A DNA stretch of 64,000 nt from positions 76,634,001 to 76,698,000 of the forward strand of contig NC_086097.1 in NCBI RefSeq assembly GCF_963921235.1. The letters are read 5' to 3'. This document shows positions 4,562 through 61,100 of the stretch, in pieces (position 1 is the stretch's first letter; each line of letters starts with the position of its first letter). This DNA is from Mobula hypostoma (lineage: Eukaryota). Under the pieces are notes generated by a model. The model had not been told where the DNA came from, searched no databases, and saw only the letters and a list, made by a program, of their open reading frames with translations. The translations under genes and the position numbers were made by a program.

Positions 4562-6660
4562 TGGGATCAAGCAGCATCTGGGGAAGTGAATAGACAGTCG
4601 ACATTTCATGCTGATACACTTCTTCAGGACTGAGAAGGAAGGGAGAAGATGCCAGAATAAAAAGCCAGGGGAGGGGAAGGAAGCTGCTAGGTGAAGCCAG
4701 GTGGATTGGAAAGGTAAAGGGCTGGAGAAGAAGGAATCGGATAGGAGAGGAGAGTGGACCATCGGAGAAAGGGAAGGAGGAGGGGACCCAAAGGGATATA
4801 ATAGACAGAATAGACAGGTGAGAAGAGGTAAAATGTCAGAGTTGGGAATAGAGGAAGTGTGGGGGGGGGGGTGAAATTTGTTAACTGGAAGGAGAAACCG
4901 ATATTCATGTCTTCAGGTTTGAGGCAACTTAGACAGAGTATAAGGTGTTGCTCCTCCACTCTGAGGATGGCTTCATCTTGGCACAAAAAGAGGCCATGGA
5001 CCAACATTTTGGAATAGGAATGGGAAATGAAATGTTTGGCAACTGGAAGTCCCACTTGTGGCGGAAGGGGTGTGGGTGTTTGATAAAGTGGTTCCTCCAG
5101 TTTATGAAAGGTCTCACCAAGGTAGAGGAGGCTGCATTAGGAGCACCAGACACAATAGACGACCCCAGCAGATTTGCAGGTGGAGTGTTGCCTCACCAGG
5201 AAGAACTGCCTGGGGCCCTGAATGGAATTGAGGGTGGAGGTCTATGGACAGGCGTAGCACTTAGGCCACTCACAAGGCTGAGTCCTGGGAGGAAGGTTAG
5301 TGTGGAGGGATGAATAGACAAAGGAATTGCAGAGGGAGCAATCACTGCAGAAAGCAGAAGTGGGGAGGGTGGTGGAGATAAAGGTATGTTTCGTGGTAAG
5401 ATTCCTTTGGAAATGGCATAGGTTGCAGAGGATAATGTGATGCAGAGGCTGATGGGTTGGTAGTTAAGGACAAGAGGAACTCTCTCACTGTTAAGACAGT
5501 GAGAAGGTTGGGGGAGCACAGATGCTAGGGAATGGAGTTTATGTGGGTGGGGGCAGCATCAATAGTGCAACCCCATTCTTTATAGAAGGAGAAAATCTCT
5601 GATGTCCTGGAAAGGAAAGCTGTGCCATGGAAACATGCAGTAGAGGTGAATAAACTGAGAAAAGGGAATAGCATTTTTACAGGAGGTAGTGTGAGTAGGG
5701 GTATAGTCGAGTTAACTGTGGGAATCAGTAGGCTTATAAAAGATGTTGCTTGACAGTTTGTCTCCAGAGATGGAAACAGAGAGATTGAGAAGGGGGAGGG
5801 ATGTGTCAGGGATGGACCAAAGGAAGTTAAGGGGAGGGTGGAAGTTAGAGGCAATGTTGATAAAATTGATGAGCTCAGCATGGGTGCATGAAGCAGCACT
5901 GATGCAAAGGTCAATGTAGTGGAGGAAGATTTGGGGAGTATAACCGGGGAAGGCCTTGAGCACGGACTGTTCTACGTAGCCACTGAAGAGGCAGGCATAG
6001 CTGTGGCCCATGTGAGTCCCCATGGCAACCCCTCAAGTTTGGAGAATGTTGGAGGAGCAAAGGAAAAAAAAATTGGTCAGGGTGAGGACCAATTCTACCA
6101 GATGGAGGAGGATTTTGGTGGAGGGAAATTTGTTGGTTCTTTTGTCAAGAAAGAAATGTACAGCTTTGAGTCCTTCTTGATACAGAATAGAAGTGTATAG
6201 GGACTGAACAACAGGGTGAAAATGAGGTGGTCAGGGCCAAGGAATTGAAAGTTACTGAGGAGATCGAAGGCATGAAAAATGTTGGCGATATAGGTGGGAA
6301 GGTACTAAACCAAGGGGGACAGACTGGAATCGAGATATGAGGACACGAGTTCAGTGGGGCATGAGCAGGCAGAGACGAAAGGCCTAACTGGACAATTAGG
6401 ATTGTAGGAGGTAGAAGCGAGCAGTGCGGGATAAGGAAACTATGAGTTTGGTGGCAGTGGAAGGGAGGGAGTTCTCCAGAGTAGATGAGGTCAGTGATGG
6501 TGTCAAAGACATTTTTCTGATGGTCTAGAGTGGGGCCCTCTTCGAGGGGTAAGTATGAAGCGGTGTCTGAGAGTTGCTGCCTGGCCTTGGCAAAGTAGAG
6601 GTCAGTGTGCCACTTTGCAACAACACCCTTTTTGTCTGTGGGCTTGATGGTAAGGTTGTG
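4562..6660 (-). mobile_element. Penelope-like retroelement, degenerate RT + C-terminal GIY-YIG endonuclease (Neptune/Nematis-like), with pLTR
   Basis: Minus-strand remnants IKPTDK, MGTHMGHSYACLF, YID, FYKPTDSHS, Cys linker CEWPKCYAC, GVVYC...YLGET and EEQHLI. Degenerate hammerhead motif at 4595-4632. Confidence 0.88.
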
Positions 6661-14549: not shown

Positions 14550-16400
14550 GAAAAGATTCAGTTTTAGCAGAGATCCCCTTCACCGCAGCGCGCACTTTTC
14601 TAGAATACTAACCAAATTAGATTATGGAATGTTAACGCACACTGTGCATGGTTTGATTTCTGGTTATCTTGTATTAACATCTGGCAATTAAGCACATTCA
14701 TCAAGGCGTTTCGCATATGATGAGAAATTTTAAAAATATCCTTCCAACTCATAATGCAGCGGTTGTTGAAGCCTCAATGCGGTGTTCTTATAAACGCAGA
14801 ATTAAACTGGAGCGCAGAGCTGTGTGAGGATTCCCTACCATCTTTCACCTGAACGCAGCTGATTATTTCAATATGCGCAAGTGGAAAACTATTATGTCCA
14901 CAGCTAACCTCGGTGAAATTGTTCTTGGCTCTGCGGTGGTTAAAACGCTCGTACGCGAATCAGGCAGGCTTCTGGATAGTTTCTTTTTCACCATTCAGTC
15001 CCACAAAGTGATCTACGCTGAGCAGATCGTGAAGAGAAACTAAGGGTTGCATTAATCACACTTTTATGTTTCTTGCTCAGTACATAAGGGAAACAAATGT
15101 GGGGTTTTGTTTGGATGGACGGCAAATTCCCCTTGATGAGAAAAAGCACAAAGACAAATGTTTTGCTGGTTTCGGAATTTCCCGTGGAAGGGCAGATGCA
15201 ATGAAAGTGAGGGCTGATTGACAGTCGTCGCTTACGGCGTGCCCAAGCTCCCCTATATGGATGTATGGATCCGTCTTATGCTAATACCGAGAGATCAACG
15301 GTTTACTGACAGTAGAGGGACGAAGGGTCCAGCGGGTGAGCGCAGCCGGCTCTTCAACAACCATGGCTGAAGGGGGTGAAGGGGAAGATGAAATTCAGTT
15401 CCTCAGAACTGTGAGTATCGTTATAGAAATAACCCTTTTCTACACAAACAAGAGAACGCGACTCAACCTATATTTTAAGTCAGCAATTCTGTGCGATCAC
15501 GTAGCGTGGGTCCCGAGTTCATGGCATTCACGGTGGTGTAGTTTGCACAGTGTGAAAATCAACTGGGAAAGTGATCGATACTAAACTAGATTATCTTTAT
15601 TTTGCTATTCCCTTTGGTTAATGTGCCCTAGTGAATTATATTTGGAGTGCCATATACAATGCAACGACGCTTAATGTCACGCTGCAAGGATAAGAGACCA
15701 AAATTCCACGGTGGTAGTGATGATCTTGTATCTAGTTTAATGAGTGTACGTAGAACAGTATTTAAAAACATGCATCCCCCAACGATGGGTTTCTAAGAGA
15801 TTATTTTAGCAACATTCCTCGGCTATCCGGGAACCGTGGTAACGCATTAACACCGGCTTGAAGTTTGCCGCTTATTTAATTAAAAAAAAGACGGTGCATT
15901 TTTAAAAGAATACAAGTTACAAGTACTATTACGTGCTTAATAGAGTAAGTAGTTGATGATAGCATGTGCGAAATGTAGATCTTTCCTAAAGCTGAGCTGT
16001 CAAGACTAATTCAAACTAACTCTTACACAAACTGGATTTCCTTGGACACTGGGCTTTCCCAAGAGAAGAGCGGCACGCAGCTCAACTTCATTACATGGTG
16101 GTTCTGCCTATTTTTAGTGGGATGACTGCGGTGTATGTAGGGAATGTGCTGCCCGGTATTGTACTGTAAACGATACGAGCTGGCGGCCCACACGCGCGCA
16201 ACAGGTGCCTTGTGGCATGTTGCTCCCTCCGGGACCATCCGGCCGGCCACTGCCCAGGCAAGCGCTTGCAGTGGGGTTGGGGCTGGGGCTGGGGAGTGAG
16301 CCGAGACACGGCGTTAGTGTGAGATGAATGCTGAGGAGAGCAACTTCTAATTTCACCCAAGAGCAGAAGTAACTAGGAACAGATTATTATCACTTGACAA
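14550..16400. promoter_or_regulatory. CpG-enriched promoter / first-exon region of RYR3
   Basis: Visibly more CG dinucleotides (e.g. cgcagcgcgc, cgctcgtacgcg, acgcgcgc) than the CpG-depleted remainder; spans exon 1. TSS not determined. Confidence 0.6.
15363..15410 (+). CDS. RYR3: Ryanodine receptor (RYR3-like) coding exon 1, MAEGGEGEDEIQFLRT
   Basis: 16 codons matching the RyR N-terminus; strong Kozak context (acaaccATGg); canonical donor ACT|gtgagt at 15411; phase 0. Confidence 0.93.
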
Positions 16401-16641
16401 AGGAAAGGCGTTGGAGGAGGTGTTAACTGGATAACATTTTATCCTCCAGCCTTTTATTAAGTATTTGACACTTGAAGCTACATTACCACCACAGCGATAA
16501 ACTTGGACACCTAAATCAAAGTTGTATTGTCCGAAAACCGATTAATCCAAGTCAATTCAAATCCACAAAATATTGGAAAGCAATTTCAAGAATCAGGCAC
16601 CTATGTCCTGTGTAGTTGAGCAACTAGGAGGGAGTCTGGAG

Positions 16642-16800
16642 CCATACACATCAAAGTTGCTGGTGAACGCAGCAGGCCAGGCAGCATCTCTCGGCCCGAA
16701 ACGTCGACTGCACCTCTTCCTAGAGATGCTGCCTGGCCTGCTGCGTTCACCAGCAAGTTTGTATGTGGCTTGAATTTCCAGCATCTGCAGATTTCCTCGT
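16642..16800 (+). mobile_element. Short fold-back PLE terminus with 14-bp TSD
   Basis: TSD gagggagtctggag at 16628-16641 and 16801-16814; perfect 35-bp inverted arms 16657-16691 / 16722-16756; same family as 32004. Confidence 0.9.
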
Positions 16801-16905
16801 GAGGGAGTCTGGAGAGAGATTTTGTATCCTCGCCATTATATTCATAGCAAAATTTAACAGACTGGAATATTTTAGCTCATTCGGAGTTTATTCCCCGCCC
16901 CCGGT

Positions 16906-26955: not shown

Positions 26956-27104
26956 CCTTCCAATGACTTTGTCTCCTTCTTAATAAAATAGAGAAAAATA
27001 AAGATAACTTATAATTTTTAAACTTATTGATCTGTTAGGATTTCAGTTATTTGTTATTTTATTATTTTATGGACAGTATCTTAGAAAATAATCCCAATGC
27101 CATA

Positions 27105-27525
27105 GTCTGTTATGCCACTGGCATTTCGGGTACCAATGAAGATTCTCCATCCCTGGTGGTGTCCAGGGCTTCCTTCATCATGTCAGTAGCTTCCTCTCGG
27201 TTTTCACTACTGTCTGTCATGCAAGTCCTGGATGGAGACGTAGGAATACCATCGCACTCAGATGTGGAAGGATTCTTCATTGCTGTTTGCATAGCAATTT
27301 TGTTTTACCAGTCAGGATTGTTAACCCTGAACAAAGCCCTCGAACCTGGAGGACTAAAGGGCCAGTAGACCACTCTTAGACTGGCTTCTACCCTTTGACC
27401 TGCTTGACGTGGGTGACCCCACCAAGAGCCAAAGCATAAAGTCCTGACTCCAGCCAATATAGCTCTCCATTTCCTTGAGGTAGCCATGCCTCCAAACCAT
27501 GACAAGGTTGTCGTCCTTTTGGAGG
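27105..27525 (-). mobile_element. RTE-derived short element, copy C
   Basis: Reverse-complement match to 8411-8828 over its length. Confidence 0.8.
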
Positions 27526-29059
27526 TTAGACAACATTGGCACCTACCTATATTTTGCCAGTTGAAAAATATTGCAAATTCTATCTGTTAACATAAATTGA
27601 TGGTACATGTTCTTTATGTGATTGTGCACTAAAGGATAATGTCAAGAATTATCAAGAAATATGGAACTAAGTTTGCAAGCTGTTCTATCATGATCAAATG
27701 ATGTTGTTGCAATACTAACTGTTTTCCAAATTTTTTGACTGTGTTTTGGAGGAAAATCTTAAATCAACTCACTGCACTGGCAGATAATGTACATGTAGAT
27801 CTAATTATAGCTCTGGTAAACTAACTGCATTTTAGCAGTGTGTAACGCAGCTTAGTTCAATCTGAATTGAGGTCAATATTAACTCTACCTTATGAGCACT
27901 TGGCCCTTCACTCATCTGTGCTACATATATTTTAAAGACATAGTTAGAATTCCATTTTATTTTGGAGCACAATACAGGTAATAAGCAACGGAAGTGTGTT
28001 TGGTAGTGTAAAATGGGCTATTTAGTGTTTCACTGTGTTGTATTCAGGGGAATTCATTAAAAAGTCAATAGAGTATGAAGATTTTTGGTGCTGCTGACTT
28101 GGAATGAAATCTGGGGGAATTGATTTCCATGCTTGTTTATTTCTCAATAGAGTTCTTTGAAAGCAGCTGTGTTGATAAATGATACTGGGTCTGATATATC
28201 TGTAGCTATTGCATTAGTCAGTCTGTGAAATAACGATACAAAACTTGTGCATGAGAATGCATAGCTACAGTTTGTGAAGCAATTCCATGCAATTCTATGT
28301 AATGCATTATCCTGCAATGAAGTTTTTAAATATTTTTAATAAGCTATAGTTAAAAAAAGTTATTCAGAGACCACATATAAATATTACAATAGAAATGCTG
28401 AAATGACAACCAAAGTAAATACCATTTCATTTTCTTTTGAAAGGTGAAAGTTAAAGGTTAGTTCTGTGAGAACATGTTCTGCTGTCTCTTATTTGGAGAA
28501 AAAATTCTTCTGGAACCATACTGCCTTCTGGTTCAGTTCTCCCTGGTATAAATTTAGATGTAGAAAAGCTGATGTTGCCAAGATGAATGTGGTTGGTGCA
28601 CTCGTCTGCCTTCTGAGACCATTGAACTAGCTCTACCACATTAGCAAAGTGATGACACATGCTAACTGCCTGCAGCATAGAATTTCTACAAAAGTAGCTA
28701 TTTCAGAAATATAATTGGATCATGATACTGTTAATTTATTCTGTGTGAACTATCTTTAGGCCTATAGGATTATAACTCTCACATAGTAATAATTTGTCTA
28801 AAGGATTACAATGAAACTTTGCAAGATAAAGCATTGTACTGTTGATAATTTTCTTATAAATTATGAAATTGTATGCAGTAATCTGAAATGGCAGGTATGT
28901 TTTTATATATTTGCTGTCTGGAAGACTGAAATTTTACTGATAAGCCATATCTTGCTGCAAAAGGGTGGTGGTTCTAAACAGACAGAGTCTAGAATCTGAG
29001 TGTACAACTAGTGTAGGAATAAAGTGATGCACTTTTGGAACAGAGATGAGGATGAATTT

Positions 29060-29285
29060 ATTCAGGCAAATCTGTGAAATTCATTATCAAGAAAGGCTGT
29101 GGAGGCCAAGTTATTGGGTGTAATTAAGGCAGAGATTGCTAGGTTTTTGATTGGTAAAGGGTTAAGCATTATAGCGGGAGGGTGGGCGAATATGGTTGAG
29201 GAAAATAAATCAGTCATGATTAATTGATGGAGTGGACTCGATGAGCCAAATAGCTTAATTTTGCCCCTAACTCCATTAGTCTTAA
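29060..29285 (+). mobile_element. CR1 3' fragment
   Basis: ggctgtggaggccaag...catgat...actcgatgagccaaatagc, CR1 3'UTR similar to 24000 and 50480. Confidence 0.7.
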
Positions 29286-29639
29286 TTAGCCTTTGAAAAG
29301 GTGGGAAGCTTTGTACTTCAGTGCATTCACTGTAACACTCCTGCCTTGATCTGTGTATGTGGCATATAGTTTGCTTCTATCAATGCACTCCACAGGGATT
29401 CCTGTGGCCATGTTACTGAAGTCCACAGCATTTATTTTGGGAGACTTTCACCAGGTTAGCTTGAGCCCAACCTCAAGCCCACTGATTTCAATGGGAATTT
29501 GGAGGACTGCACATACTACACAAAGGGGCAGTTAAGTTCCTTTTTATGTTGATTTTAATGTTTTTAGTTAAGTCGTTATTGAAGTTTTAACAGCTCATAA
29601 AAATCTGTTTAAAATTACATCTTGCGTTTTGCAGCTCTG

Positions 29640-30330
29640 TAAAACTGAGAACAGTGCCTGGCTCTTGTCTGCAACTCAGAGTGAGGTTATTATGTTGGAG
29701 ATGGAAGACTGAATCAAAAAGTTCTGGAGGCTTAGTCCCTTCAGAATACTGCACGCAGAGGGCAGGGAAAGATGTGTTTGTGGTGGTTGGAATTGAAGGA
29801 AGTTGAATGTGGACACTAATGGTGTGAAACATGAGGAAAAGAGGTATCCTGTTCTTGTTCTGGATAGAGCAGAAGGGGAGAAAAAAAACAGGAAATCAAT
29901 CAGAAAGAATTGAGAGCCCCAAGGTGAAAAGCATGGGTGAGGAAAAATGAAATTCAAAGTCCACCTCTCCACCTCCAATGAGGACTGGCTCATGGATCTC
30001 AATCTCCCTCCTATATGCTGATTGAGCACTATCTTTGATTTGGCTTAGTCAGCAAACTTCAACATGGCATTGGAGAATGAGTAGAGTACTTGGAGGAAGC
30101 ACTGTGGAAAGGAATGAAGTCATGGTAGCTGTGTGTACCAGTGGACTTGTGGTTGAATACTGTCTATTAACCTATCTATGGAAATGGTGCAAAAGTTAAA
30201 GACTGGCCATTGAAAGTGAGAGCATTGTGGATATTGACAGTGAAGGTAATGAAACATTCTGGTTCCATATGAGAATAAAAAAGAGCACTGGACTATCATC
30301 ATAGAACTGGGGAAACCCAAACAGGAAGTC
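29640..30330 (-). mobile_element. Old, highly diverged PLE remnant
   Basis: Minus-strand remnants HKSTGTHSY and NKNRIPLFLMFH parallel YKPTDSHS and ERVPLVLNY of the 4562 copy. Confidence 0.5.
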
Positions 30331-32059
30331 CAACATTGTGTCCACTCAGACAAGTTCCCATGGTTACACCTCTGAAGTAAGTGAATGAAGTTAAAGAAAA
30401 TTTTGCTCAATGGATGGACATTCAGTCAGTATTGGAGATAGAGGGGAATTGGTTAGGATTCTATTTAAAAAAAAAAGTGAAAGATGCAGGAGTGAGGAAT
30501 TAGCCATCTGTGGTAAATTTGAGCCAGTTGGGCTCAGAAAATCATAAATTGGGCCAAATTGTCAGAAATGTCACATATGCAGGTAGAAATTAATTGAGCA
30601 AGAGGAGAACAAATAGACTCAAGCTAGGGAGAAATGAGTTCTGTGAAGTGGGAATAGTATGAAATTAAGTGTCTATCAGAAATCGTGTTTTGTGGTTTGT
30701 GGGAATGGTACAGAAGTGTGCTGTACATGGTTGGGGGTCTATAATGTTAGAGGCTATGGAGGAAAGATCTCTAGAGGAAGTGAGGTAAGTTACTGTCTCC
30801 CTGACCTCGTTCCATTGCGGACATTCCATTTTAATCTTTTATCCCATTCTGCTTTTTTTGCACTCAAAATTGTTTTGTCCTCTGACAGTTGCATGTTCAT
30901 CTGAAAGTCACCATCCTAAATTCTGTTATTTTCACAGGTGTACTCTAAGTACATCCACCTTTTTTTATTTCACAAAGTTACTGTAGTTTTAAACATCTTG
31001 TATGATGTTCAGTTTTATGACAAAAGTTCAATTTGAACATTTTATGAGGTGAAACATATCATTTGAATTGTGAACATTACAGTTTGTAATCATGTGATTT
31101 GCTCATCAAACTTGTAATTCCATTTCTTCATCATATTGGAACAGATTTTTCTGGTCTGGAAAGATCTGCTCCAATATGATGCAGCAAATCTTCTTTCATC
31201 GACCACCCTGAAATAGAGGCAACTGTTCCATTATGTCCATATGGACTTTGTGGTGGACAGGGAAATTCCTTTTGGCCCAAAGTATCCCCGAATCCAGCAG
31301 TGACAGTGCTTCCATGGTAATATTGAGGAAGGCCAACTTCTGAAGCCTCCCTGTAAACTATGTCAGCAACAAAACCGTATTCTCATCTGCCAAGGTTGTT
31401 TATATCCCTTGTATGTGGAGACATTTTAATGTTGTTAAAATTGATGAAGCAGATTTTAAAAAAAAACAAAATATAAATAATTAAAGATATTAAAGTAATG
31501 TGAAATAATTTTTTTAAAAGTGATCTTTCCACACTTTTGTCTCCTAGTCTACAGCCTTCAAATCTCTTTTGAAATCAATAGGATCTTGTATCTTGCACCC
31601 TTGGACCTGGTGCCAGATCTAAGATACGGGACCCCAGTGTAAAAGAAGGACATCACAGCAAACTGAACTGCACAGCTAGGACTCTTGTATTTTACCGTGC
31701 CTGTACAGGCAACATTTTATTTAAACTGCAGAAGCCTTGTAGTTTGATTATCTAACATGCTCCATGCACAGATCAAGTTTACTTTTGACTTCCTTTGATA
31801 CATTTTTATCTTTTTTGTGTGTCTGATTCTTCAGGTAAATACTTCTGTTCATGTTAATATACTCTCTGTTTTGTGTAATTTGACCAATAATTTTCTCAAA
31901 ATGGGCATGGAACATTATCTCCCCCTTTTGCAGCCATACTTAAGATCAATGATGACATTTTAACTGAACAACAACTTACTAAAGCAGATCTGATTAAAAA
32001 TATACATCAAAGTTGCTGGTGAACGCAGCAGGCCAAGCAGCATCTATAGGAAGAGGTGC

Positions 32060-32095
32060 AGTCGACGTTTCAGGCCGAGACCCTTCGTCAGGACT
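32060..32095 (-). ncRNA. Minimal type I hammerhead ribozyme motif (antisense arm)
   Basis: Minus strand reads agtc CTGACGA agggtctcggcct GAAA c gtc gact. Confidence 0.78.
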
Positions 32096-32145
32096 AACTG
32101 AAGGAAGAGTGAGTAAGGGATCCCTTACTCACTCTTCCTTCAGTT

Positions 32146-32181
32146 AGTCCTGATGAAGGGTCTCGGCCTGAAACGTCGACT
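32146..32181 (+). ncRNA. Minimal type I hammerhead ribozyme motif (sense to RYR3)
   Basis: agtc CTGATGA agggtctcggcct GAAA c gtc gact: stem I agtc/gact, complete core, stem II agg/cct, loop-less palindromic stem III ACGT, GUC cleavage triplet (cut predicted after 32177). Confidence 0.8.
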
Positions 32182-32351
32182 GCACCTCTTCCTATAGATG
32201 CTGCTTGGCCTGCTGCGTTCACCAGCAACTTTGATGTATGTTGTTTGAATTTCCAGCAGCTGCAGAATTCCTGTTGTTTTCTGATTAAAAATATTTGAAG
32301 TCTTCAATAAGGTATTTGAAGCCTCAGGGGTTTAAGTTTGAAATGCTAGCG

Positions 32352-33055
32352 TAGTGGATTTTGGTTAATTGGGACACATCGAGACCAGTACACTTTGGCC
32401 CAATTAAACGGCTGCCCCAATTAGCCGATGTTTCATGGCAATAGTTTAACAAAGACGAACAACCATTTAACTGAGTAACAAGTTACCTGTATGTATTTAA
32501 ATAAAATACAGAACAAATTATAACACTACCAATATTACTATAGTACTATAAAACTGTATTAGTTCCTAATAGTTTTGATGGAGGAATTCATCCAGTGTAT
32601 GCTGCTATGGTCTTTTGATCGACTGTAAAAGAACAAAATCAGCGCTGACACCTAGTGCAGATAATGGGCTTCCTGCATGAAGTACTGTCAAATATCACTT
32701 TTTCAATTTAGCATTGATTGGCCCAAATAAATAACATAGCACAAGCATCTGTAACTGATGCTATTTAAAAACTGTTCACTCTAAACACGGTGTTGTGTCT
32801 AACCGCTACACAATTGCATGCGACTGGCACTAGTTAGAAACTATTGCATCCTTCAAATCTTCGTGTCTGACGGCCAGATAACTGCATGTAACTGGTGCTA
32901 GTTAGAAACCGTTTAGCTTCAACAGTTTCTTGTCCCTATTACTTAGAATAGTGTAACAAATAAACAAAGGAAATCCTGTTTATTTTCTCAATTAGTTTCT
33001 GTTTTTTTAAGAGTTGTCCCAAATAAGTGGCTGCCCAATTAACTGGAATCCACTG
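32352..33055. mobile_element. Non-autonomous DNA transposon (Tigger/pogo-like MITE)
   Basis: TIRs tagtggattttggttaattggg / cccaattaactggaatccactg (18/22 match); subterminal ggctgcccaatta repeats; no ORF. Confidence 0.8.
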
Positions 33056-33289
33056 TGCTACCCTGAAATATGAATTAGGTTGTGTTCTCCAGCTTAAACA
33101 AGTGTAGGACATCAATGATTAAATAAATACATTTAAACTCTTTCCAATGTTCATCAAACATGTTTTATAACAAGATTATTGCACTCATTTATCTTCTGAA
33201 AATAATCGTAAACTTGCTGCATTGCAATTATACTTTCTTGTTGGAGAAGGTCACTGGTGCCACAATTGGATCTATGGTTTAACTGAAGA

Positions 33290-33660
33290 AGAACAATTTA
33301 TATTTGTATTGAACTTCTTTCAACTGTAGAACATTCCAGACTACTGTACTGACGATTATTTTGAATTGCTGATGCAAGTTAGCTAATTTGAGCACATCAA
33401 TCTTCTAGTGACGTTAACTGTAAGATAAAATTATGCTAATGTTCTTCGGATGACTCCCAATTCCTTCAAAAATTTGTGATGTAATCTTTCATGTCCACCT
33501 AGAGAGCAGCCAGAAACTCATTTTAAAGTTGCATCTAAAAGATGGATCACTACAAATAAACAAAACTCTCCCACTACAGAACTAGAGTGTCAAACTAGAC
33601 TTTGTGCTAAGGAGTTGGATCTGCAACCTTCTGTCTTGGAGATGAATGTGGTATTATTGA
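33290..33660 (-). mobile_element. Old DeuSINE (SacSINE1-like)
   Basis: gtccacct.gagagcag...catctaaaagatgg...gagtgtcaaactagactttgtgct...caaccttctg follows the reverse Deu-domain/tRNA head as I recall it; diverged. Confidence 0.55.
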
Positions 33661-33856
33661 CATCTCTGAAATCTTGCATGGAAATGCCACATGTGCATAA
33701 TTGCCAATAGGACCTCAAAACTTTGGATTTTTCATTCTGTATATACAAATGTGTAAGTTCTGAACTTGATAGCACTTATTAGCAAGTGTTTTCCCCGTAC
33801 GTTCCATTGCTCCCTCCTCCTCATGCTCTGTCTCCCTTTTTATTATATATAACATA

Positions 33857-34262
33857 ACTGTCTGTTACACCTGGCACTTAGGGCAGCAGTAAAGGTCCTC
33901 GATCCCTGGCAAGCACAAGGCTTCCTTCATCATACTTCTAGCTTCCTCTCAGTTTTCTCTCAGTCATGCAAGACCTGGGTGGAGACAGGACTACCATTGC
34001 ACTCAGATGTCGAAGGATTCTTCATTGCTATTTCTGTAACAATTTTGTTTTACCAGACAGGGTTGCTAGAGCTGTTAAACCCATGAACCTGGAGGATCAG
34101 TAGACCATTCTTGGTCTGTCCTCTACCCTTTGACCTGTTAGGCATGGGTGACCCTACCAAGAGCGAAGGCATAAAGCCCTGATTCCAGACAACGTAGCTC
34201 TCCAGGTCATTGGGGCATGCAAACCTCCAAACCCAGTAACAAGGTTGTGGTCCTCTTGGAGG
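33857..34262 (-). mobile_element. RTE-derived short element, copy D
   Basis: Colinear with 27105-27525. Confidence 0.8.
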
Positions 34263-37200
34263 TTCCTACCACAGCATGGCATTTAAATTCAGGAATATGC
34301 TAATGAGGATACAATTGGCTTTGTATACAAGTCAATATTGGGAAATCTACACAAGGTAAATATGCCTTCTTTTGTAAGTCAGCAGCTGACCATGAAATCC
34401 AGGCTACTCATTTTACCAAAGCAGACTCTTATTAAAGTAAACAAGGTCATTTGTAATGGGCATATAAAAGTAAGGACAGAGTGTACAGATTTTTGCCATA
34501 AGTGCAAATACTGGTTGTGCATCCTAATATAGCTATTCCTCATACTTAATCCCCAATTCATCTTAAAGCCACATTTCATCTTGACTTCCCATGTATAATG
34601 CCATCGAAGATCAACTAATACATAATGTGTGTAAACATAAAGATCATATTTCCTGAACAATTTGTGCTATTCCAAAATGATTACTCGATTTACAAGTATG
34701 AATTTCTGGCTTGCAAACTATTTAGTTACTTGATTGCCCTTGAGCCATAGGCACAAAAATAATGTAGGCTTTAAAGAATGCTGGTATACCTCAACAACTA
34801 CGGATATATGAAAAGGAAAGTATCTTTTCTCTGTCATCAGTGGGATCATCCTTGCTATATTACAATATTGAATACGTTGTTGAATTATATTTAACAATGC
34901 CAAAGTTGCACAAATACCTTCTCTTGCCAACAGTGATAAACAAGCACCTTAAGTGACTGAACAAAGTCAATTGGTGGGAAGTATAAGCCACTGCTAATAT
35001 GGATGAATAATTATCCAGTAAGTTTGAAAGATGTAAGATTAAAGAATCATCAAAAGCCTCGCAGTGATGTTATTAAAAGTAAAATGAAATGGATAAAGGG
35101 AGGATAAAATTTGCTTTGTGTTGAAGTAGAAGGTAAATATAAGAGACAGCCAGTTAAAGTTTTAAGTAGTTAGATGAGGCAATGCTACTGAGATTTTGTA
35201 GCTAGAGATGGGAGCCAGATTTGCAATGCTTTGTCTTGTGATGGCTTGGATCAGAAAGAAAGGACTGTTACCAACATTGCCAAATCTAGATTTGGTCATC
35301 CACGAAAGAGATTTCATTATGAGCGGTCAAAACCATTTTGAGACTGAAGCAAATGCATGAGTTGCTATACACAAGGAGTTATTAAGCAAAAGTTTCTCTT
35401 CTTTTCTCCTAGTTCTGTGTTCTGATTATATGATTAACGATCAGTCTCATGATTACACTTTGTACTGCCTGCAAAGTTCACACCATTTCCTTTGCATCAC
35501 ATCATTGTTAATAAATATAGTGGCTTAGAGTTTGGACTAACTATAGTACAAGGCAGTTGATGCATTATTGCCTGAAATTGCACTCTACTGTTAGAAGCTC
35601 TGAACTCAATATTTTATTTGCTTTCGTGCTTGCTCCTCCATGGAGATTCTGCACGGTGAATTCTGTTTCAATAATTCGTTGATCACAGCATGCTGATTAC
35701 TGGCTGCAGTGTCAACATCCTAACTGAAATCAAGTGTGAATAATCACAGGATTTTTGTAAATTTACAAAACAGGTGAAGATCCACTGTTATTTAGCCCTT
35801 TTCTCATCTTTAATTGCTGTAAAATGGACCTGACAGTTTTTACCCTTTATCATCTTTGTTATATCATCATTTTAGATTTAGTCTTAAATGATAACCTTTC
35901 CAGCTTCAAATTCGGCTTGGAAGTTTTAGCATAAAACACCACTGGAGTTTTCTTCCTGCAATGTGCTTAAATAGTATGTTAGATAAGCAACATTATTTCT
36001 TTTTTGAAAGAAAAGGATCAGGGGATGTTAGCATTGAACCTTCTTCCTTCTCTGGTTTCCAGTATCATATTTCAAGTTAGCTGAAGACATTTCACTATGA
36101 AGAAGATGGAATATTATATTGATGTACAGCAGAACGTTTTGCCTAAATGCAGAGTATGGGAGTATGACTTTTTGTTTCTGGTTCTTCACAGTTCTTTGAG
36201 AAAATTCACAGGACTATTTTCCTTCATGCATGTATATTACCTATAAAATGCAATCTTTCATGATACTTGCTTCCAGAACCTTTGAAGGCAAGCTGTTCAT
36301 ATGGTTGCTTTGAACAATGAGGTCTATTAAAGGCTACCTTCAATGTTATAGTTTACAAATCAGCTACCTATCATAAGTCAGCTTCATCATTCAAGCTCCA
36401 AAAGCTAGACTTTATGGCTGTCAGTATTCTGATCATTTTTTCCCCCACAAGCTCATTTCATAAAATAAACAATGCATTCCTTTTAAAATGCTTCCAAGCT
36501 ATCCAGTTTATCTTAAAAAATCTATTGCTCCAAAATAAAGAAACATTCTATCCCTAACTTGCAAAATCTACCTCAAGAAAGCTGTTAGGGGATTGATTAT
36601 TCCCCTAGTATGCCTAGACACACGGAGACTTGGACGAACCTTTGGAGGTTAATATGTACTTGGAGAGATCAGTTACTGGCTTCTGTATAACATTGTATGT
36701 TTGATTGTCAATCACTTTTGATAATATGACCAAACTTTTCAGAGAGGTCTTCTGTCTCATTTGACCAATGTATTCAAGGAAGTCAGAAGTGTTTGTCAGA
36801 CGGGATTTGCCCCTGCCAAGTACAGGCTGAAATTCCCCATCTCATCTTGAGAAACAGTTCCTGTTAATCCACAGAGCTTTAGGTTTGTAGATTTGTGGCT
36901 AAACTAGTTCATAAATTTTAAAAGTCCACTTTCATGATGTAACATTGGTGTAAATTTTTATTAAATATCACTCATCCTTAGTTGTTGCAGGACGCATAGT
37001 GGAGGCCTTTCTACAATTGATATAATTTAAATTTCCACAGTTCTGTTATGTAGAAAATCTTCTACTTTTGCTTCAACGGCCAATTTCTGATTGATGCTTT
37101 TATTTCAAATATTTGCTGTTAATGTAGAAAACATGTTGAAAATGTGAGTGCTTTATTCAGTTATTGCTGTATTGGCAATGTATGACATATTATAGGCTGC

Positions 37201-37349
37201 AAGAAAAATGTTAACTTGGCCTGATTGCCTTTAAATTTTCAACGTGGTCCTATTTTGTCCAACATTGTCCTTATGACAGATGTTAAGAGAAAAAGTAAAG
37301 TAAGTTGAGAGGAAGATTGAAAGGAAAAATATAGATTGGTCAAGTGAGC

Positions 37350-37535
37350 CAGGTATCTCCTATGCTTAATAAAGTGGCCACTGAGTGTATGGTTGTGGTC
37401 TTCTGCTGCTGAAGCTCATCCACTTCAAAGTTTGATGTGTTGTCTGTTCAGAGATGTTCTTCTGCACACCACTGTTGTAATGCGTTACTGCTGCCATCCT
37501 GTCAGATTAAATCAGTCTGATCTCTCTCATTAACA
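37350..37535. mobile_element. Tc1-like non-autonomous DNA transposon fragment
   Basis: Contains taataaagtggccactgagtgta, a Tc1-type TIR followed by TA; partner TIR not seen. Confidence 0.5.
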
Positions 37536-38181
37536 AATAAAGGGAAACCACTTCCCTTTATTTACCCTGATCAATTCAGTTATCTCCTTCTACCCTTCCA
37601 CTAAATTATCTTTGCACCACGAAGCTCCGGTTAACACTAAAAGACAATTTTTGATGACATTCAGAATTAAAATAGTTGGATAATCATTCAGCTTTTTCTG
37701 TGAAATGTTTTTGTAATCTTTTTGATCTTAAGCTGATAACTAATGACCTTGAAATTACCCTGTAGTGCAAAAAGACATATTTTTGAATTTCCCCTGTGCA
37801 TTATTTTATTGGAAGCACTTACCCAGAAAAATACATTAAAGGTCATTCATACTACAATTTCACACCATATAACTTCAAAGCAAGTGCAATATAACATTGA
37901 ATTATATAGATTCTCTCTCACATAAATAATCTGTTTGGACCAGCTGATTTCTACTCTACTAGAGCATTTCTCATCCTTCCTCATTTAATTCCATCTGTAC
38001 AAACCTCCACTCAGTTCTTCATCACGTGTTTATTGAGTTTGTCATAGATTTTTCCATACTATTCCATACGATTTTGCTACAGCAACTTCATTCTTATTAT
38101 TCACTGGCTATAGAAGCTTTCTAGGACCCATTTTGACTTCTTGATAACTTTTTTGCTCTTCCTCACAACTGGAAATACAGT

Positions 38182-41100
38182 CCATAAGACCAGAAGACAT
38201 AGGAGTAGAATTGGGCCATTCGGCTCATTGATTCTGCTCTGCCATTCTATCATGGCTGATCCTGGATCTCACTCACCCCATACACCTGCTTCCTCACCAT
38301 ATTGTTTGATGCCCTGACCGATCAGGAAACAATTAACTTCTGCCTTAAATATACTCACAGACTTGGTCTCCACTGCAATCTGTAGCAGAGCATTCCACAG
38401 ATTCACTACTATTTGGCTTGAAAAGTTCCTCCTTACCCCTGTTCCAAAAGGTGACTCCTCAATTTTGAGGTGGTGCCCTCTAGTTCTGGATACCCCCACC
38501 ATAGGGAGCATCCTCTCCACATCGACACTATCTAGTCCTTTCAACATAGGGTAGGTTTCAATGAGATCCCCATGCATTCTTCTAAATTCCAGTGAGTACA
38601 GGCCCAAAGCTGCCAAATGCTCCTCATATGCCCTTTCATTCCTAGAATCATCCTTGTGAACCTCCTGTGGACTCTCTCCAATGACAACTTTCTCCTTTCT
38701 GAGGTACGGGGCCCAAAACTGTTGACAATACTCCAAGTGCGGGCCTGACTAGTGTCTTATAAAGGCTCAGTATTATCTTCTTGCTTTTATATTCGATTCT
38801 CCTTGAAATAAATGCCAACATTGCATTTGGTTTCTTTATCACAGAGTCAACCTGTAAATTAACCTTCTGGGAGTATTGCACGAGGACTCTCAAGTCCCTC
38901 TGCACCTCTCATGTTTGTACCTGCTCCCTGTTTAGATAATAGTCTGCAATATTGTTCCTTTTACCAAAATGCAAAATCATACATTTCCCAACACTATTCC
39001 ATCTGTCACTTTTTTGCCCTTTCTTCCAATTTGTCTAAGTCCTACTGCAATTGCATTGCTTTCTCAGCACTACCTACCCCTCCACCTATCATCGTATCAT
39101 TTACAAACTTTGCCTCAAAGCCATCAATTCCATTATCCAAATAATTGGCAAACAATGTGAAAACTAAGTTCCCTGAGGAACACCACTAGACACTGGCAGC
39201 CAACCAGAAAAGGCCCCTTATATTTGAACTCGCTGCATTCTGTTTTTCAGCCATCCATGGCAGTATCTTCCCTGTAACACCATAAGATTTTATCTTGTTT
39301 AGCAGCCTCGTGTGACACCTTACCAAACACCTTCTGAAAATCCAAATAAGTGACATCCACTGCTTCTCCTTTGTCCACCCTACTTCTTTTTACCCCAAAG
39401 AACTCTAACAGATTTGTCAGGCAAGATTTCCCTTCCCAGAAACCATGCTGACTTTGACTTATTTTATCATTAGTCTCCTAGTATCCTGAATCTTCATCTT
39501 TAATAATAGACTCCTGTGTTGGCACGTGGCCAAGTGATTAACTCGTTCATCTAGTGATTTGAAGGTTGCCAGTTCGAGCCTTAGCTGAGGCAGCATGTGT
39601 GTCCTTGAGCAAGGCACTTAACCACACATTGCTCTGCGACAACACCGGTGCCAAGCTGTATGTGCCCTAGTGCCCTTCCCTTTGACAACATCGGTGGCGT
39701 GGAGAGGGGAGACTTGCAGCATGGGCAACTGTTGGTCTTCCATACAACCTTGCCCAGGCCTGGGCCCTGGAAACCTTCCAAGGCACAAATCCATGGTCTC
39801 ATGAGACTAACGGATGCCTAAGAAATAATAGACTCCAATGCTTTGCAATCTTCCAGTCCTCTAGGAATCAAGTGATTCTTGAAAGATCATGACCAATGTA
39901 TCCGTTATCTCTTCAGCAACCTCTCACAGGACTTTGGGATGTAGTCGATCTGGTCCAGGTGACTATCCACCTTAAGATATTGGAGTTTGCCTAGCATTTT
40001 TTTCTTTTGTAATAGCAATGGTACTCACTCCTACTCCCTGACACTAACTAACCTGTGGCATAATGCTAGTCACTTCCATAGTGAAGGCTGATACAAAGTA
40101 CCCATTAAGTTAATCTGCCATTTCTTTGTCCCCCGTTACTACTTCACCAGCAGCATCATTTTACCAGTGGTCCAATATCAACTCTCACTTCCCTCTTTAC
40201 CCTTTCTATAACGGAAAAAATGTTTGGTTTCCTGCTTTGTATTATTGGCTATTCTGCCCTTATATTCAATCTATTCCCTTCTTGTAGCTGTTTTAGTTGC
40301 CTTTTGTTGGATTTTAAAAGCTTCCCAATCATTCAACTTCCCACTCACTTTTGTTACCTTATGTGCCCTTTCCTTGGCTTTTATGCAGTCCTTAACTTCC
40401 CTTGTCAGCCATGGTTGCCTACCCCTGCCATTTGAGAACTTCTTCCTCTGTAGGACATATCTAACTCTGCTTTGTGAACTATTCCCAGAAACTTCAGCCA
40501 CCTCTGCTCTGCCATCATCCCCGCCAGTATCCTCCTCCAATCCACCTGGGCAAGCTCCTCTCTCATGCCTCTGTTATTCCCTTTATTCCATTGTGATACT
40601 GACATATGTGAGTTATGCTTCTCCCTCTCAAACTGCAGTATGAATTCAATCATATTATGGTCACTGCCTCCTAAGGGTTCCTTTATGTTAAGCTCCCTAA
40701 TAAGGTCTAGGTTATTACACAACACTGAATCTTATATAGCCTTTCCCCGAATAGGCTCAAGCACTCTCTGCTCTAAAAAGCCATCTTGTAGGCACTCAAC
40801 AAATTCCCTCTCTTGCAATCCAACACCAACCTGATTTTCTCAATCCCCTTGCATATTGAAGTCCTCTCTTACAACTGTGTCATTACCCTTATTTCATGCC
40901 TTTTCCAGCTCTCTTTGCAAACTCAAGCCCACATCTTGGCTACTACTTGGAGGCCTATATATTACTTTCATAATGGTTCTTTACCCTTGCAATTTCTTAA
41001 CTCCACCCAAAAAGATTCAACATTCTCTGAACCTATGTCACCTCCTTCTAAAGATTTAATTCCATCTCTTACCAACAGAGCCACAGCACTGCCTATGCCT

Positions 41101-53922: not shown

Positions 53923-54042
53923 GATGATGAAGTTGTACTTCAGTCCGTTGCCACCATCAATAAAGAACAACGTAAATTTTGCCTGGCAGCTGAAGGATTT
54001 GGTAATCGTTTGTGCTTTCTCGAGCCTACTTCAGAAGCTAAG
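53923..54042 (+). CDS. RYR3: Ryanodine receptor (RYR3-like) coding exon 2, [40 protein letters not shown]
   Basis: 120-nt exon with polypyrimidine tract and ag (ttttctttcttatag) and donor AAG|gtattc. In frame with exon 1. QRKFC and EPTSEAK match RyR3 rather than RyR1 (QLKLC, EPTSNAQ) or RyR2 (QQKLC, ESTSNSK). Confidence 0.92.
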
Positions 54043-57191: not shown

Positions 57192-57757
57192 GCAACACAC
57201 ACAAAATGCTTGAGGAACTCAACAGGTCAGACAGCATCTATGGAAGAGTAAACAGTCAACATTTCGGGCCGAGACACTTGTGCTGGGTCCAGAACAGATT
57301 CTCTGAAGTTATAGGAATTTAAAGTAGGTGACACTCTCCACCTCTGATCACCCAATGAGAACTGGCTTTTCGACCTCTGGTTCCCTTTTTTTGAGTTTTG
57401 CCGGGATGATGATATTGAATGCTGAACTTTAGTCAATGAAGAACATCATGATGCATGTATCTATGTTGTCCAGATTTTGTGGAGTTGAACGAAGAGCCAC
57501 TGAGATGTGGATCTGTGGACCATTCTGTCTTGGTCTCGTTCTTTGCTATCATCATGACTGCAGTCTACATCTCACCTGAGGCAGACATCAACTGCCGTGA
57601 TCAACAAGAATGAAAATAATCTGTCCTGATTAAGAGTGTCAGCCCGAAGTATCAACTGTTTCCTCTTTTCCATAGATGCTGCCTGATCTGCTGAGTTCCT
57701 CTAGCATTTTGTGCACATTGCTTTGGTTTTCCAGCAACTTCAATTTTCTTGTGTTTG
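57192..57757. mobile_element. Inverted pair of PLE termini (57192-57279 minus; 57632-57757 plus)
   Basis: cacaaaatgct...cagcatctatggaa versus ttccatagatgctg...agcattttgtg; about 350-bp spacer. Confidence 0.75.
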
Positions 57758-58184: not shown

Positions 58185-61100
58185 CATAGGAACTACAGCA
58201 CAGAAACAGGCCTTTTGGCCCTTCTTGGCTGTGCCGAACCATTTTCTGCCTAGTCCCACTGACCTGCACACAGACCATATCCCTCCATACACCTCCCATC
58301 CATGTATCTGTCCAATTTATTCTTAAATATTAAAAAAGAACCCGCATTTACCACCTCGTCTGGCAGCTCATTCCATACTCCCACCACTCTCTGTGTGACT
58401 CCCACCACTCTCTGTGTGAAGAAGCCCCCCTAATGTTCCCTTTAAACTTTTCCCCCCTCACCCTTAACCCATGTCCTCTGGTTTTTTTCTCCCCTTGCCT
58501 CAGTGGAAAAAGCCTGCTTGCATTCACTCTATCGACACCCATCATAATTTTATATACCTCTATCAAATCTCCCCTTATTCTTCTACGCTTTAGGGAATAA
58601 AGTCCTAATCTATTCAACCTTTCTCTGTAACAGAGTTTCTCAAGTCCCGGCAACAACCTTGTAAACTTTCTCTGTACTCTTTCAACCTTATTTATATCCT
58701 TCCTGTATTTTGGTGACCAAAACTGAACACAATACTCCAGATTCGGCCTCACCAATGCCTTATACAACGTCATCATAACATTCCAGCTCTTATACTCAAT
58801 ACTTCGATTAATAAAGGCCAATGTACCAAAAGCTCTCTTTATGACCCTATCTACCTGTGACGCCACTTTTAGGGAATTTTGTATCTGTATTCCCAGATCC
58901 CTTTGTTCCACTGCACTCCTCAGTGCCTTACCATTAACCCTGTAAGTTCTACCATGGTTTGTCCTTCCAACATGCAATACCTCACACTTGTCTGCATTAA
59001 ACTCCATCTGTCATTTTTCAGCCCATTTTTCCAGCTGGTCCAAGTCCCTCTGCAGGCTCTGAAAACCTTCCTCGCTGTCTACTACACCTCCAATCTTTGT
59101 ATCATCAGCAAATTTGCTGATCCAATTTACCACATTATCATCCAGATCATTGATATAGATGACAAATAACAATGGACCCAGCACTGATCCCTGTGGCACA
59201 CCACTAGTCACAGGCCTCCACTCGGAGAAGCAATTCTCTACTACCACTCTTTGGCTTCTTCCATTGAACCAATGCCTGATCCAATTTACCACCTCTCCAT
59301 GTATACCTAGCAACTGAATTTTCCTAACTAACCTCTCATGCGGGACCTTGTCAAAGGCCTTACTGAAGTCCATGTAGACAATATCCACTGCCTTCCCTTC
59401 ATCCACTTTCCTGGTAACCTCCTCGAAAAACTCCAATAGATTGGTCAAACATGACCTGCCACGCACAAAGCTATGTTGACTCTCCCTAATAAGTCCCTGT
59501 CTATCCAAATGTTTGTAGATTCTGTCTCTTAGTACTCCCTCCAATAACTTACCTATTACCGACGTTAAACTTACCGGCCTATAATTTCCCGGATTACTTT
59601 TCGATCCTTTTTTAAACAACGGAACAACATGAGCCACTCTCCAATCCTCCAGCACCTCACCTGTAGACAGCGACATTTTAAATATTTCTGCCAGGGCCCC
59701 TGCAATTTCAACACCAGTCTCCTTCAAGGTCCGAGGGAACACCCTGTCAGGTCCCAGGGATTTATGCACTTTAATTTTCCTCAAGACAACAAGGACCTCC
59801 TCCTTTTCGATCTGTACAGTTTCCATGATCTCACTACTTGTTTCCCGAATTCCATAGACTTCATGCCAGTTTCCTTAGTAAATACAGACGCAAAAAACCT
59901 ATTTAAGATCTCTCCCATTTCCTTTGGTTCCACACATAGGTGACCACTCTGATCTTCAAGAGGACCAATTTTATTCCTTACAATCTTTTTGCTCTTAATA
60001 TACCTGTAAAAGCTCTTTGGATTATCCTTCACTTTGACTGCCAATGCAACCTCATGTCTTCTTTTAGCAATCCTGATTTCTTTCTTAAGTATTTTCTTGC
60101 ACTTCTTATACTCCTCAAGGACGTTATTTACTCCAGTGCTCAGGCAGGACAGATTAGAGGGCTTCCTATACATGTCATACAACCCCCTTTTCTTCTTTAT
60201 CAGAATTGCAATATCCCTTGAGAACCAAGGTTCCTTATTCCTATTCACTTTGCCTTTAATCCTGACAGGAACATACAAATTCTGCACTCTCAAAATTTCT
60301 CCTTTGAAGGCTTCCCACCTACCGATCACATCCTTGCCTGAGAACAACCTGTCCCAATCCACGCTTTTTAGATCCTTCCTCATTTCTTCAAATTTGGCCT
60401 TCTTCCAGTTAAGAACCTCAACCCTAGGACCAGATCTATCCTTGTCCATGATCAAGTTGAAACTAATGGTGTTATGATCACTGGAACCAAAGTGCTCCCC
60501 TACACAGACTTCCATCACTTGTCCTAACTCGTTTCCTAACAGGCGATCCAATATTGCATCCCCTCTAGTTGGTCCCTCTATATATTGATTTAGAAAACTT
60601 TCCTGAACACATTTTACAAACTCTAAACCATCTAGACCCCTAACAGTATGGGAGTCCCAATCAATATATGGAAAATTAAAATCCCCTACCACCACAACTT
60701 TATGTTTCCTGCAGTTGCTTGCTATTTCCCTGCAGATTTGCTCTTCCAATTCTTGTTGACTACTGGGTGGTCTGTAATACAATCCCACTAATATGGCCAT
60801 ACCTTTCCTGTTTCTCAGTTCCACCCATAAGGACTCAGTAGACAAGCCCTCTAATCTGTCCTGCCTGAGCACTGCTGTAATATTTTCCCTAACAAGCAAT
60901 GCTACTCCCCCACCTTTCATTCCTCTGCCTCGATCACATCTGAAACATCGGAACCCTGGAATATTAAGCTGCCAGTCCTGCCCCTCCTGTAGCCAAGTTT
61001 CACTAATTGCTATAACGTCATAATTCCACATGTCAATCTACGCCCTCAACTCATCTGCCTTCCCCGCAATACTCCTAGCATTGAAATATATACACCTCAG

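What the first reader, a model, noticed from the sequence alone, without database searches (positions are those of the whole stretch)
32002..32239. 238-bp spacer-less palindrome with two mirror-image hammerhead ribozymes in RYR3 intron 1
Seen: two 119-bp arms meet with no loop (ggga|tccc at 32120/32121). Each arm carries a complete hammerhead core. The single mismatch (32087 G vs 32154 T) falls at N7 of CUGANGA, the position that tolerates any base, so both cores stay canonical. A roughly 40-bp unpaired extension follows, and the insertion has a 15-bp TSD. Established: PLE pLTRs carry minimal type I hammerheads whose loop-less palindromic stem III is thought to need dimerisation, and PLEs often integrate with an inverted, 5'-truncated pLTR. 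Inference: a young, non-coding PLE insertion whose transcript from either strand holds one ribozyme and its perfect antisense. In RYR3 pre-mRNA it should fold into a roughly 119-bp hairpin that masks the ribozyme and could feed ADAR or Dicer. The N7 mismatch is also a CpG transition, so it need not reflect selection.
Basis: partly seen in the sequence, partly recalled or inferred. Interest (0 to 1): 0.85.

Follow-up and report, generated by a model that had tools for sequence, protein, structure and literature searches.

The report
Mirror-image Penelope retrotransposon stump in RYR3
The palindrome is real but ordinary for this genome: it is a short, recent insertion of two mirror-image ends of a Penelope-type jumping gene in a ryanodine-receptor intron, one of an estimated tens of thousands, likely made when both cut DNA strands copied the same element RNA and the two copies were joined head to head.

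Summary
Confirmed: arms 32002-32120 and 32121-32239 pair with one mismatch; each holds a minimal hammerhead motif; a 40-bp tail and a 15-bp target duplication frame the insert, in intron 1 of a RyR3-like gene. It is not unique. The family gives 92,395 exact 21-mer hits; 59 of the first 100 sit in a head-to-head inverted pair (about 27,000-40,000 pairs, my estimate); 58 loci share this centre within 8 nt. The parent is a ~3.5-kb Neptune/Nematis-type Penelope-like element (RT, CX4CX2C, GIY-YIG). Inverted pLTR, tail and opposite-strand hammerhead pairs are published. All 37 sampled pairs have one tailed and one tail-less arm, either arm can reach further 5', arms share variants within a locus, and both outer junctions show microhomology: best read as priming from both target strands on one template. 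Side result: arm 5' ends peak 2.7-3-fold exactly at the predicted ribozyme cut site, confounded by microhomology. Ribozyme activity and ADAR/Dicer use were not tested; Rfam gives no hammerhead hit. The scan noted similar palindromic stumps before in other genomes (e1-7858806, e1-7858714).

The parts
31989..32003 (+). Left copy of the 15-bp target-site duplication; last 2 bases also match the element (microhomology)
32004..32120 (-). Tail-less arm: inverted, 5'-truncated pLTR end, element positions 1-117 (119 with the microhomology)
32059..32096 (-). Minimal hammerhead motif of the left arm (core CUGACGA 32091-32085; predicted cut after 32064)
   Evidence: features from PMC4209133
32119..32122 (.). 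Spacer-less centre; the native element reads ...CAAA-TCCC here, so the join has a 2-nt self-complementary overlap
32121..32279 (+). Tailed arm: 5'-truncated pLTR end, element positions 1-159
32145..32182 (+). Minimal hammerhead motif of the right arm: stem I 32145-32149 with 32178-32182, core CUGAUGA 32150-32156, stem II region 32157-32169, GAAA 32170-32173, loop-less palindromic ACGU 32173-32176, predicted cut after 32177
32240..32279 (+). Unpaired 40-bp PLE 'tail'; in full elements it lies in frame with the start of the ORF
32280..32294 (+). Right copy of the target-site duplication
15363..15410 (+). Host gene coding exon 1, ryanodine receptor (RyR3-like)
53923..54042 (+). Host gene exon 2, ryanodine receptor (RyR3-like)
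16642..16800 (.). Second head-to-head insertion of the same family in the same intron (arms from positions 76 and 41, neither with CUGANGA), 14-bp TSD at 16628-16641 and 16801-16814

Best explanation
The palindrome is a recent, non-coding insertion of two 5'-truncated copies of the hammerhead-bearing end (pLTR) of a Penelope-like retrotransposon, set head to head between a 15-bp target duplication, and likely made in one event in which both cut target strands primed reverse transcription on the same element RNA. Shown: membership of a family with an RT + GIY-YIG parent, one tailed and one tail-less arm, TSD, arms alike within a locus, variable centres across loci. Inferred: the endonuclease makes a 13-15-nt staggered cut; one 3' end primes at the downstream start window (positions ~155-166, giving the tail), the other at the upstream window (~120-126); both cDNAs run towards the RNA 5' end and are joined where they stop, helped by microhomology; here both stopped at the same base. 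The two ribozymes are passengers: on either strand the antisense arm is transcribed first, so the motif is predicted to be masked, and the two motifs lie on opposite strands and cannot dimerise within one transcript. No function for RYR3 is indicated.
For: Parent: tandem ~3.5-kb units in L179 and L183 with an 885-aa frame holding RT and GIY-YIG (Pfam E 5.8e-5 and 8.2e-4, both under the curated cut-offs). Abundance: 92,395 hits; 724 and 542 head-to-head loci in two 30-nt gap bins; 59 of 100 sampled arms have an inverted partner. All 37 of 37 pairs in that sample have one arm ending at 151-159 and one shorter, 34 of them at 114-131. The tail-less arm reaches further 5' in 17, the tailed arm in 11, within 5 nt in 9 (3.4 expected, p=0.003); a tail-primed cDNA folding back on itself cannot give the 17, and a tail-less one cannot make a tail. 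Arms agree at 637 of 687 variable-site comparisons against 0.66 permuted (111 pairs). 20 loci with this exact centre carry 10 different haplotypes, matched across arms in 19. TSD of 12-17 bp in 94 of 111 pairs. Microhomology at both outer junctions: 1.25 against 0.73 (0 of 3000) and 1.01 against 0.68 (p=0.003). Single arms of both end types carry TSDs of 11 or more (6 of 14 tailed, 5 of 27 tail-less). In vitro, an anole PLE cuts and extends both strands and starts at two sites that bracket the tail (PMC11167929).
Against: The in vitro work is on a Poseidon-clade element, this one is Neptune/Nematis-type. A hairpin intermediate trimmed by the endonuclease on either arm would also give both asymmetry classes. 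Identical arms could come from two RNAs of one source locus, or from later conversion. cDNA length distributions of the two arms give no sign of collision on one RNA. The sample is the first 3.2 Mb of one contig; pair ends come from BLAST and are blurred by a few bases; 30 of 41 single arms had no TSD of 11 or more (two of them run off the fetched stretch). The 104 letters beyond the TSD in the relative were not shown, and only the left half of the locus was laid.
Confidence: 0.7

Rival explanations
1. Same insertion, but the inverted arm is made by self-priming: an antisense transcript (or a cDNA) folds back at its 3' end, is copied into a hairpin, and the endonuclease trims the tail from one arm, as proposed for rotifer Penelope elements.
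For: [quoted passage not shown] Arms are alike within loci and symmetric centres are in excess, 9 of 37; centres favour natural short palindromes.
Against: Single arms of both end types with TSDs, microhomology with the target at both ends, a 10-nt spread at both outer ends, and the two start sites seen in vitro. Plain cDNA fold-back fails for 17 of 37 pairs.
Confidence: 0.2
2. The palindrome is itself a non-autonomous mobile unit (a MITE-like PLE derivative) that is transcribed and reinserted whole.
For: 21 of the 50 loci fetched have exactly this centre.
Against: Those loci carry 10 haplotypes, each mirrored on both arms, with no arm-specific shared variants; centres elsewhere are as common; a 2-nt overlap favours this join.
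Confidence: 0.05
3. The insertion has been kept as a functional RNA hairpin or twin ribozyme that regulates RYR3 pre-mRNA through cleavage, editing or small RNAs.
For: A 119-bp near-perfect duplex is predicted in the intron; both core boxes are intact.
Against: It appears absent from two relatives, is as intact as other young copies, has thousands of equivalents, and a core-less twin lies in the same intron. A single min-HHR showed no cleavage in vitro (PMC4209133).
Confidence: 0.04
4. Fold-back assembly artefact.
For: No read spanning the centre was examined.
Against: TSD on both sides, tail on one arm only, one CpG mismatch between arms, the same grammar at 94 of 111 other pairs with their own TSDs; a read-derived contig runs 22 bases into the left arm (below the tool's 31-base bridging rule, and possibly the assembly's own sample).
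Confidence: 0.01

Closest known systems
Endonuclease-positive Penelope-like element insertions with inverted 5'-truncated pLTR and 30-40-bp tail (PMC3846280; PMC8557442; passages read)
   Same: Head-to-head inverted pLTR, palindromic junction, tail on one end, TSD, tail in frame with the ORF start, C-terminal GIY-YIG parent.
   Different: Here the insert is only the two pLTR stumps (276 bp), TSDs are 12-17 bp (8-10 bp in the rotifer examples read), and the form occurs tens of thousands of times.
Minimal type I hammerheads of metazoan PLEs (PMC4209133; parts 1-2 of 4 read)
   Same: Core boxes, 4-5-bp helix I, loop-less palindromic helix III, extra base after position 9; that paper also notes pairs of min-HHRs 100-700 bp apart on opposite strands in Schistosoma.
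   Different: Helix II is 3 bp rather than 6-8, and position 11.1 is mostly U in this subfamily, so the closing pair is G-U or A-U.
PAc, Poseidon element of the green anole (PMC11167929; parts 1-2 of 4 read)
   Same: Two reverse-transcription start sites that bracket the tail; both target strands cut and extended in vitro; ribozyme just upstream.
   Different: Other clade; the text read does not join the two extensions into a head-to-head insert, and found no RNA ends at the ribozyme cut.
L1 twin priming (recalled, not read; one search listed only two papers that mention the term with Penelope)
   Same: Both target strands prime, giving an inversion joined by microhomology within a TSD.
   Different: L1 cDNAs copy separate parts of the RNA; here they start about 37 nt apart and usually copy the same stretch, giving a palindrome.
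Non-LTR retrozymes (bioRxiv 10.64898/2026.07.22.740005; part 1 of 5 and passages read)
   Same: Non-coding, hammerhead-bearing, PLE-related.
   Different: Retrozymes are tandem direct repeats; this is an inverted pair cut directly from an autonomous element.

Membership tests
EN+ Penelope-like element | Single ORF with RT followed by C-terminal GIY-YIG endonuclease in the parent | tested here: met
   L179 4212-6869, 885 aa: RVT_1 E 5.8e-5 at 376-538, GIY-YIG E 8.2e-4 at 788-862, both below Pfam cut-offs; YIDD motif visible; one stop separates it from the N-terminal 157 aa
EN+ Penelope-like element | Two cysteines between GIY and YIG (CCHH motif) | tested here: met
   VIYCVRCSRCGLLYIG with downstream histidines, read by eye; feature from PMC8557442
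EN+ Penelope-like element | Partial tandem forming pLTRs | tested here: met
   L179 and L183 hold the arm twice about 3.5 kb apart around the ORF
EN+ Penelope-like element | Inverted 5'-truncated copy, 30-40-bp tail at one end, TSD | tested here: met
Neptune/Nematis clades | CX2-5CxxC motif in the RT-EN linker | tested here: met
   CKRNKCYTC; feature
Neptune/Nematis clades | Placement in an RT phylogeny | not tested
   No tree built; Neptune and Nematis not told apart
Minimal type I hammerhead of PLEs | CUGANGA, GAAA and UH core with 4-5-bp helix I and palindromic loop-less helix III | tested here: met
   164 of 208 motif hits in window and loci have stem I of 4 or more pairs; 143 of these read CGUC
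Minimal type I hammerhead of PLEs | G10.1-C11.1 pair and long helix II | tested here: not met
   11.1 is U in this copy and in 153 of 164 motifs; helix II 3 bp
Minimal type I hammerhead of PLEs | Covariation in the stems | tested here: inconclusive
   Copies are too alike; only scattered decay variants
Minimal type I hammerhead of PLEs | Self-cleavage as dimer or with protein | not testable with these tools
   Only an indirect genomic peak of 5' ends at the cut site
Rfam hammerhead families | Covariance-model hit | tested here: not met
   No hammerhead family listed at gathering score over the window, nor at E up to 5 (30000-34500) or 10 (single arm)
Non-LTR retrozyme | Tandem direct repeats each with a hammerhead | tested here: not met
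   Arms are inverted
MITE-like unit that moves whole | Copies share one centre and arm-specific variants | tested here: not met

The most novel reading that the evidence does not exclude
This family's tens of thousands of junctions are a fossil record of the unresolved Penelope integration cycle: head-to-head palindromes arise by twin target priming at the two tail-bracketing start sites on one RNA, and the sharp excess of arm 5' ends at the base after GUC (581 against 186-214 at neighbouring positions, with no such step at a matched GAC control, 624 against 607) is an in vivo footprint of an animal minimal hammerhead cutting its own retrotransposition template.
Probability: 0.35. Interest if true: 0.65.

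Novelty: new member of a known kind. Interest (0 to 1): 0.3.

Why it matters
The locus itself matters little: it is a neutral-looking young insertion. The family is a good natural data set for two open questions named in the papers read: how PLEs form inverted repeats and tails, and whether their minimal hammerheads cut in vivo. A genome that tolerates thousands of spacer-less or near spacer-less palindromes of 100 bp or more would also be a test bed for palindrome decay and for double-stranded RNA load in introns (inference; not measured).

Tried and rejected
Rfam: only weak below-threshold hairpin matches (mir-4788, MIR5229) and chance hits; no hammerhead. RNA evidence: no RNA holder listed; run X13 is RNA by guess only and its contigs cannot show ends or expression. 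Loose ends at 32059, 32095 and 32117 mark older subfamilies with other flanking sequence, not truncation points. The idea that this centre is a special hot spot (an initiator-like start) was dropped: symmetric centres in the sample lie at 0, 7-9, 17-19 (twice), 24, 25, 28-33, 34 and -468, and 32 of 98 arm 5' ends fall at 10-39; no same-design control at another centre was run. Collision of the two cDNAs on one RNA: not seen. Unconstrained cofolding of two arms gave a symmetric duplex, not a test of the active dimer. The position-57 count (266) allowed T and so overlaps the position-58 set; 34 of its first 100 had C. The position-55 pattern excludes the commonest symmetric junction and needs an intact CpG, so 206 is low. 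A null that only swapped TSDs was one-sided and was replaced. Search by sequence of earlier findings: nothing. The shark/ray literature search returned only hammerhead sharks. No paper joining twin priming to PLE inverted repeats or using genomic 5' ends as evidence of PLE ribozyme cleavage appeared in the listings; subscription papers are not covered, and no supplements were read (those of PMC11167929 map insertion ends and may bear on this).

Full report
Observation. The arms 32002-32120 and 32121-32239 are reverse complements with one mismatch, 32087 G against 32154 T. A 15-bp direct repeat flanks the insert at 31989-32003 and 32280-32294. The region is predicted to fold into one hairpin of -257 kcal/mol, z -36.5; no other perfect palindrome arm in the window exceeds 12 bp. 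Each arm carries CUGANGA, a 13-nt stem II region, GAAA and CGUC, with the mismatch at N7. Ryanodine-receptor exons 1 and 2 lie at 15363-15410 and 53923-54042 on the + strand; RyR3 is the best full-length PDB match of the 38-aa exon-2 peptide. I number the element from 32121 = position 1.

What it belongs to. The right arm has close copies all over the genome (40 of 893 candidates scored, 96-100%), and a 21-mer from it occurs 92,395 times. Upstream of longer copies lies an ORF with RT, a CX4CX2C linker and a GIY-YIG domain; L179 and L183 are ~3.5-kb partial tandems. These are the features given for Neptune/Nematis-type PLEs (PMC8557442, passages); no tree was built. The pLTR resembles repeats I recall from cartilaginous fishes; that label comes from no call. 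Inverted 5'-truncated pLTRs with a 30-40-bp tail are described as typical (PMC8557442; PMC3846280), and pairs of minimal hammerheads on opposite strands 100-700 bp apart were noted in PMC4209133.

How common the palindrome is. 58 loci have a centre within 8 nt of this one; of the 50 listed and fetched, 21 have the identical centre. Two gap bins give 724 and 542 further head-to-head loci. I took the first 100 motif hits on contig C1 as a structure-blind sample and recovered all 100: 59 have an adjacent inverted partner, which scales to roughly 27,000-40,000 pairs (my estimate). 13 of the 37 pairs found there hold two whole hammerhead motifs. A second head-to-head copy, with neither core, lies at 16642-16800 in the same intron.

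How it is made. In all 37 pairs one arm ends at 151-159 and the other is shorter, 34 at 114-131; with TSD-anchored ends the windows are about 155-166 and 120-126, and TSDs are 12-17 bp in 94 of 111 pairs from all sets. The inner ends vary: the tail-less arm reaches further in 17, the tailed arm in 11, and 9 are within 5 nt against 3.4 expected (p=0.003). Arms of one locus agree at 637 of 687 variable-site comparisons, against 0.66 when partners are permuted, and 20 same-centre loci carry 10 haplotypes mirrored across arms in 19, so each palindrome is built anew. Both outer junctions show more microhomology with the target than a two-sided null. The geometry is what two target 3' ends would leave if each primed cDNA on sense RNA. 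An anole PLE protein cuts and extends both strands in vitro and starts at two sites that bracket the tail (PMC11167929). I therefore favour twin priming on one template with microhomology-aided joining (inferred, 0.7). Self-priming on an antisense template with endonuclease trimming (PMC3846280) is not excluded (0.2).

Age and function. One CpG mismatch separates the arms; C is the family state at N7 (154 of 164). Contigs of two relatives stop at 32003 and 32000 with further letters that do not lie on the arm, as empty sites would; those letters were not shown and only the left half was laid. In a head-to-head pair the antisense arm is transcribed first from either direction, so the ribozyme is predicted never to fold, and the two motifs cannot pair within one transcript. 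A single minimal hammerhead showed no cleavage and dimers little (PMC4209133). This subfamily also has U at 11.1 and a 3-bp helix II, and Rfam lists no hammerhead. Editing or Dicer use is possible but has no evidence here.

Side result at the cut site. I counted arms whose three bases upstream of a position all differ from the element. Position 58, the base after GUC: 581. Positions 55, 59 and 61: 206, 214 and 186. Position 57: 266 with T allowed, 34 of the first 100 with C. A control at another GAC start showed no step: 624 at 32, 607 at 33 (different anchor). Against this: about half of 30 position-58 loci join through GAC or GACT microhomology, which the ribozyme's own stems supply; only one control pair was run; positions 32-33 are as frequent as 58; and PMC11167929 found no RNA ends at its cut site. 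The excess is about 1% of arms (my estimate). It is suggestive only.

Earlier notes. Two notes of this scan on other genomes describe the same kind of stumps, built anew at each insertion, with 5' ends clustered just before the ribozyme; my counts agree (32 of 98 ends at 10-39) and add the small peak at the cut.

Verdict. Interest 0.3; the family-wide junction record, not this locus, carries what novelty there is.

Noticed in passing
window 16628-16814: Second head-to-head insertion of the same PLE family in the same intron, 14-bp TSD, both arms truncated below the catalytic core.
   Followed up: yes
window 57193-57756: Two older, 71-75% identical pLTR fragments of a related PLE family facing away from each other 344 bp apart; perhaps a decayed head-to-head pair.
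   Followed up: no
window 4595-6657: Older PLE copy on the - strand, about 68% identical to the young family, with broken RT and GIY-YIG frames and a variant hammerhead motif near 4627 whose stem II differs.
   Followed up: partly
window 32347-33060: 27-nt imperfect inverted repeats 660 bp apart with internal 47-nt direct repeats, right beside the insertion; looks like a non-autonomous DNA transposon.
   Followed up: no
window 789-2909 and 58348-62172: Two LINE-like copies on the - strand with long endonuclease and RT frames; the second also has an upstream esterase-like frame (recalled resemblance to CR1).
   Followed up: no
genome-wide, and 49 listings: A recurrent junction that joins element position 34 directly to 58-60 through a 3-nt overlap (about 13 of 100 listed); it would delete stem II if it is a direct deletion, though L218 is an inverted join.
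   Followed up: partly
L069, L077, L124, L220: Some arms carry short internal duplications or restarts near the hammerhead, suggesting repeated template jumps.
   Followed up: no
L181 1724-2635 (-): An exon with RNase III-like (Dicer-like, recalled) motif lies next to a large inverted PLE insertion.
   Followed up: no
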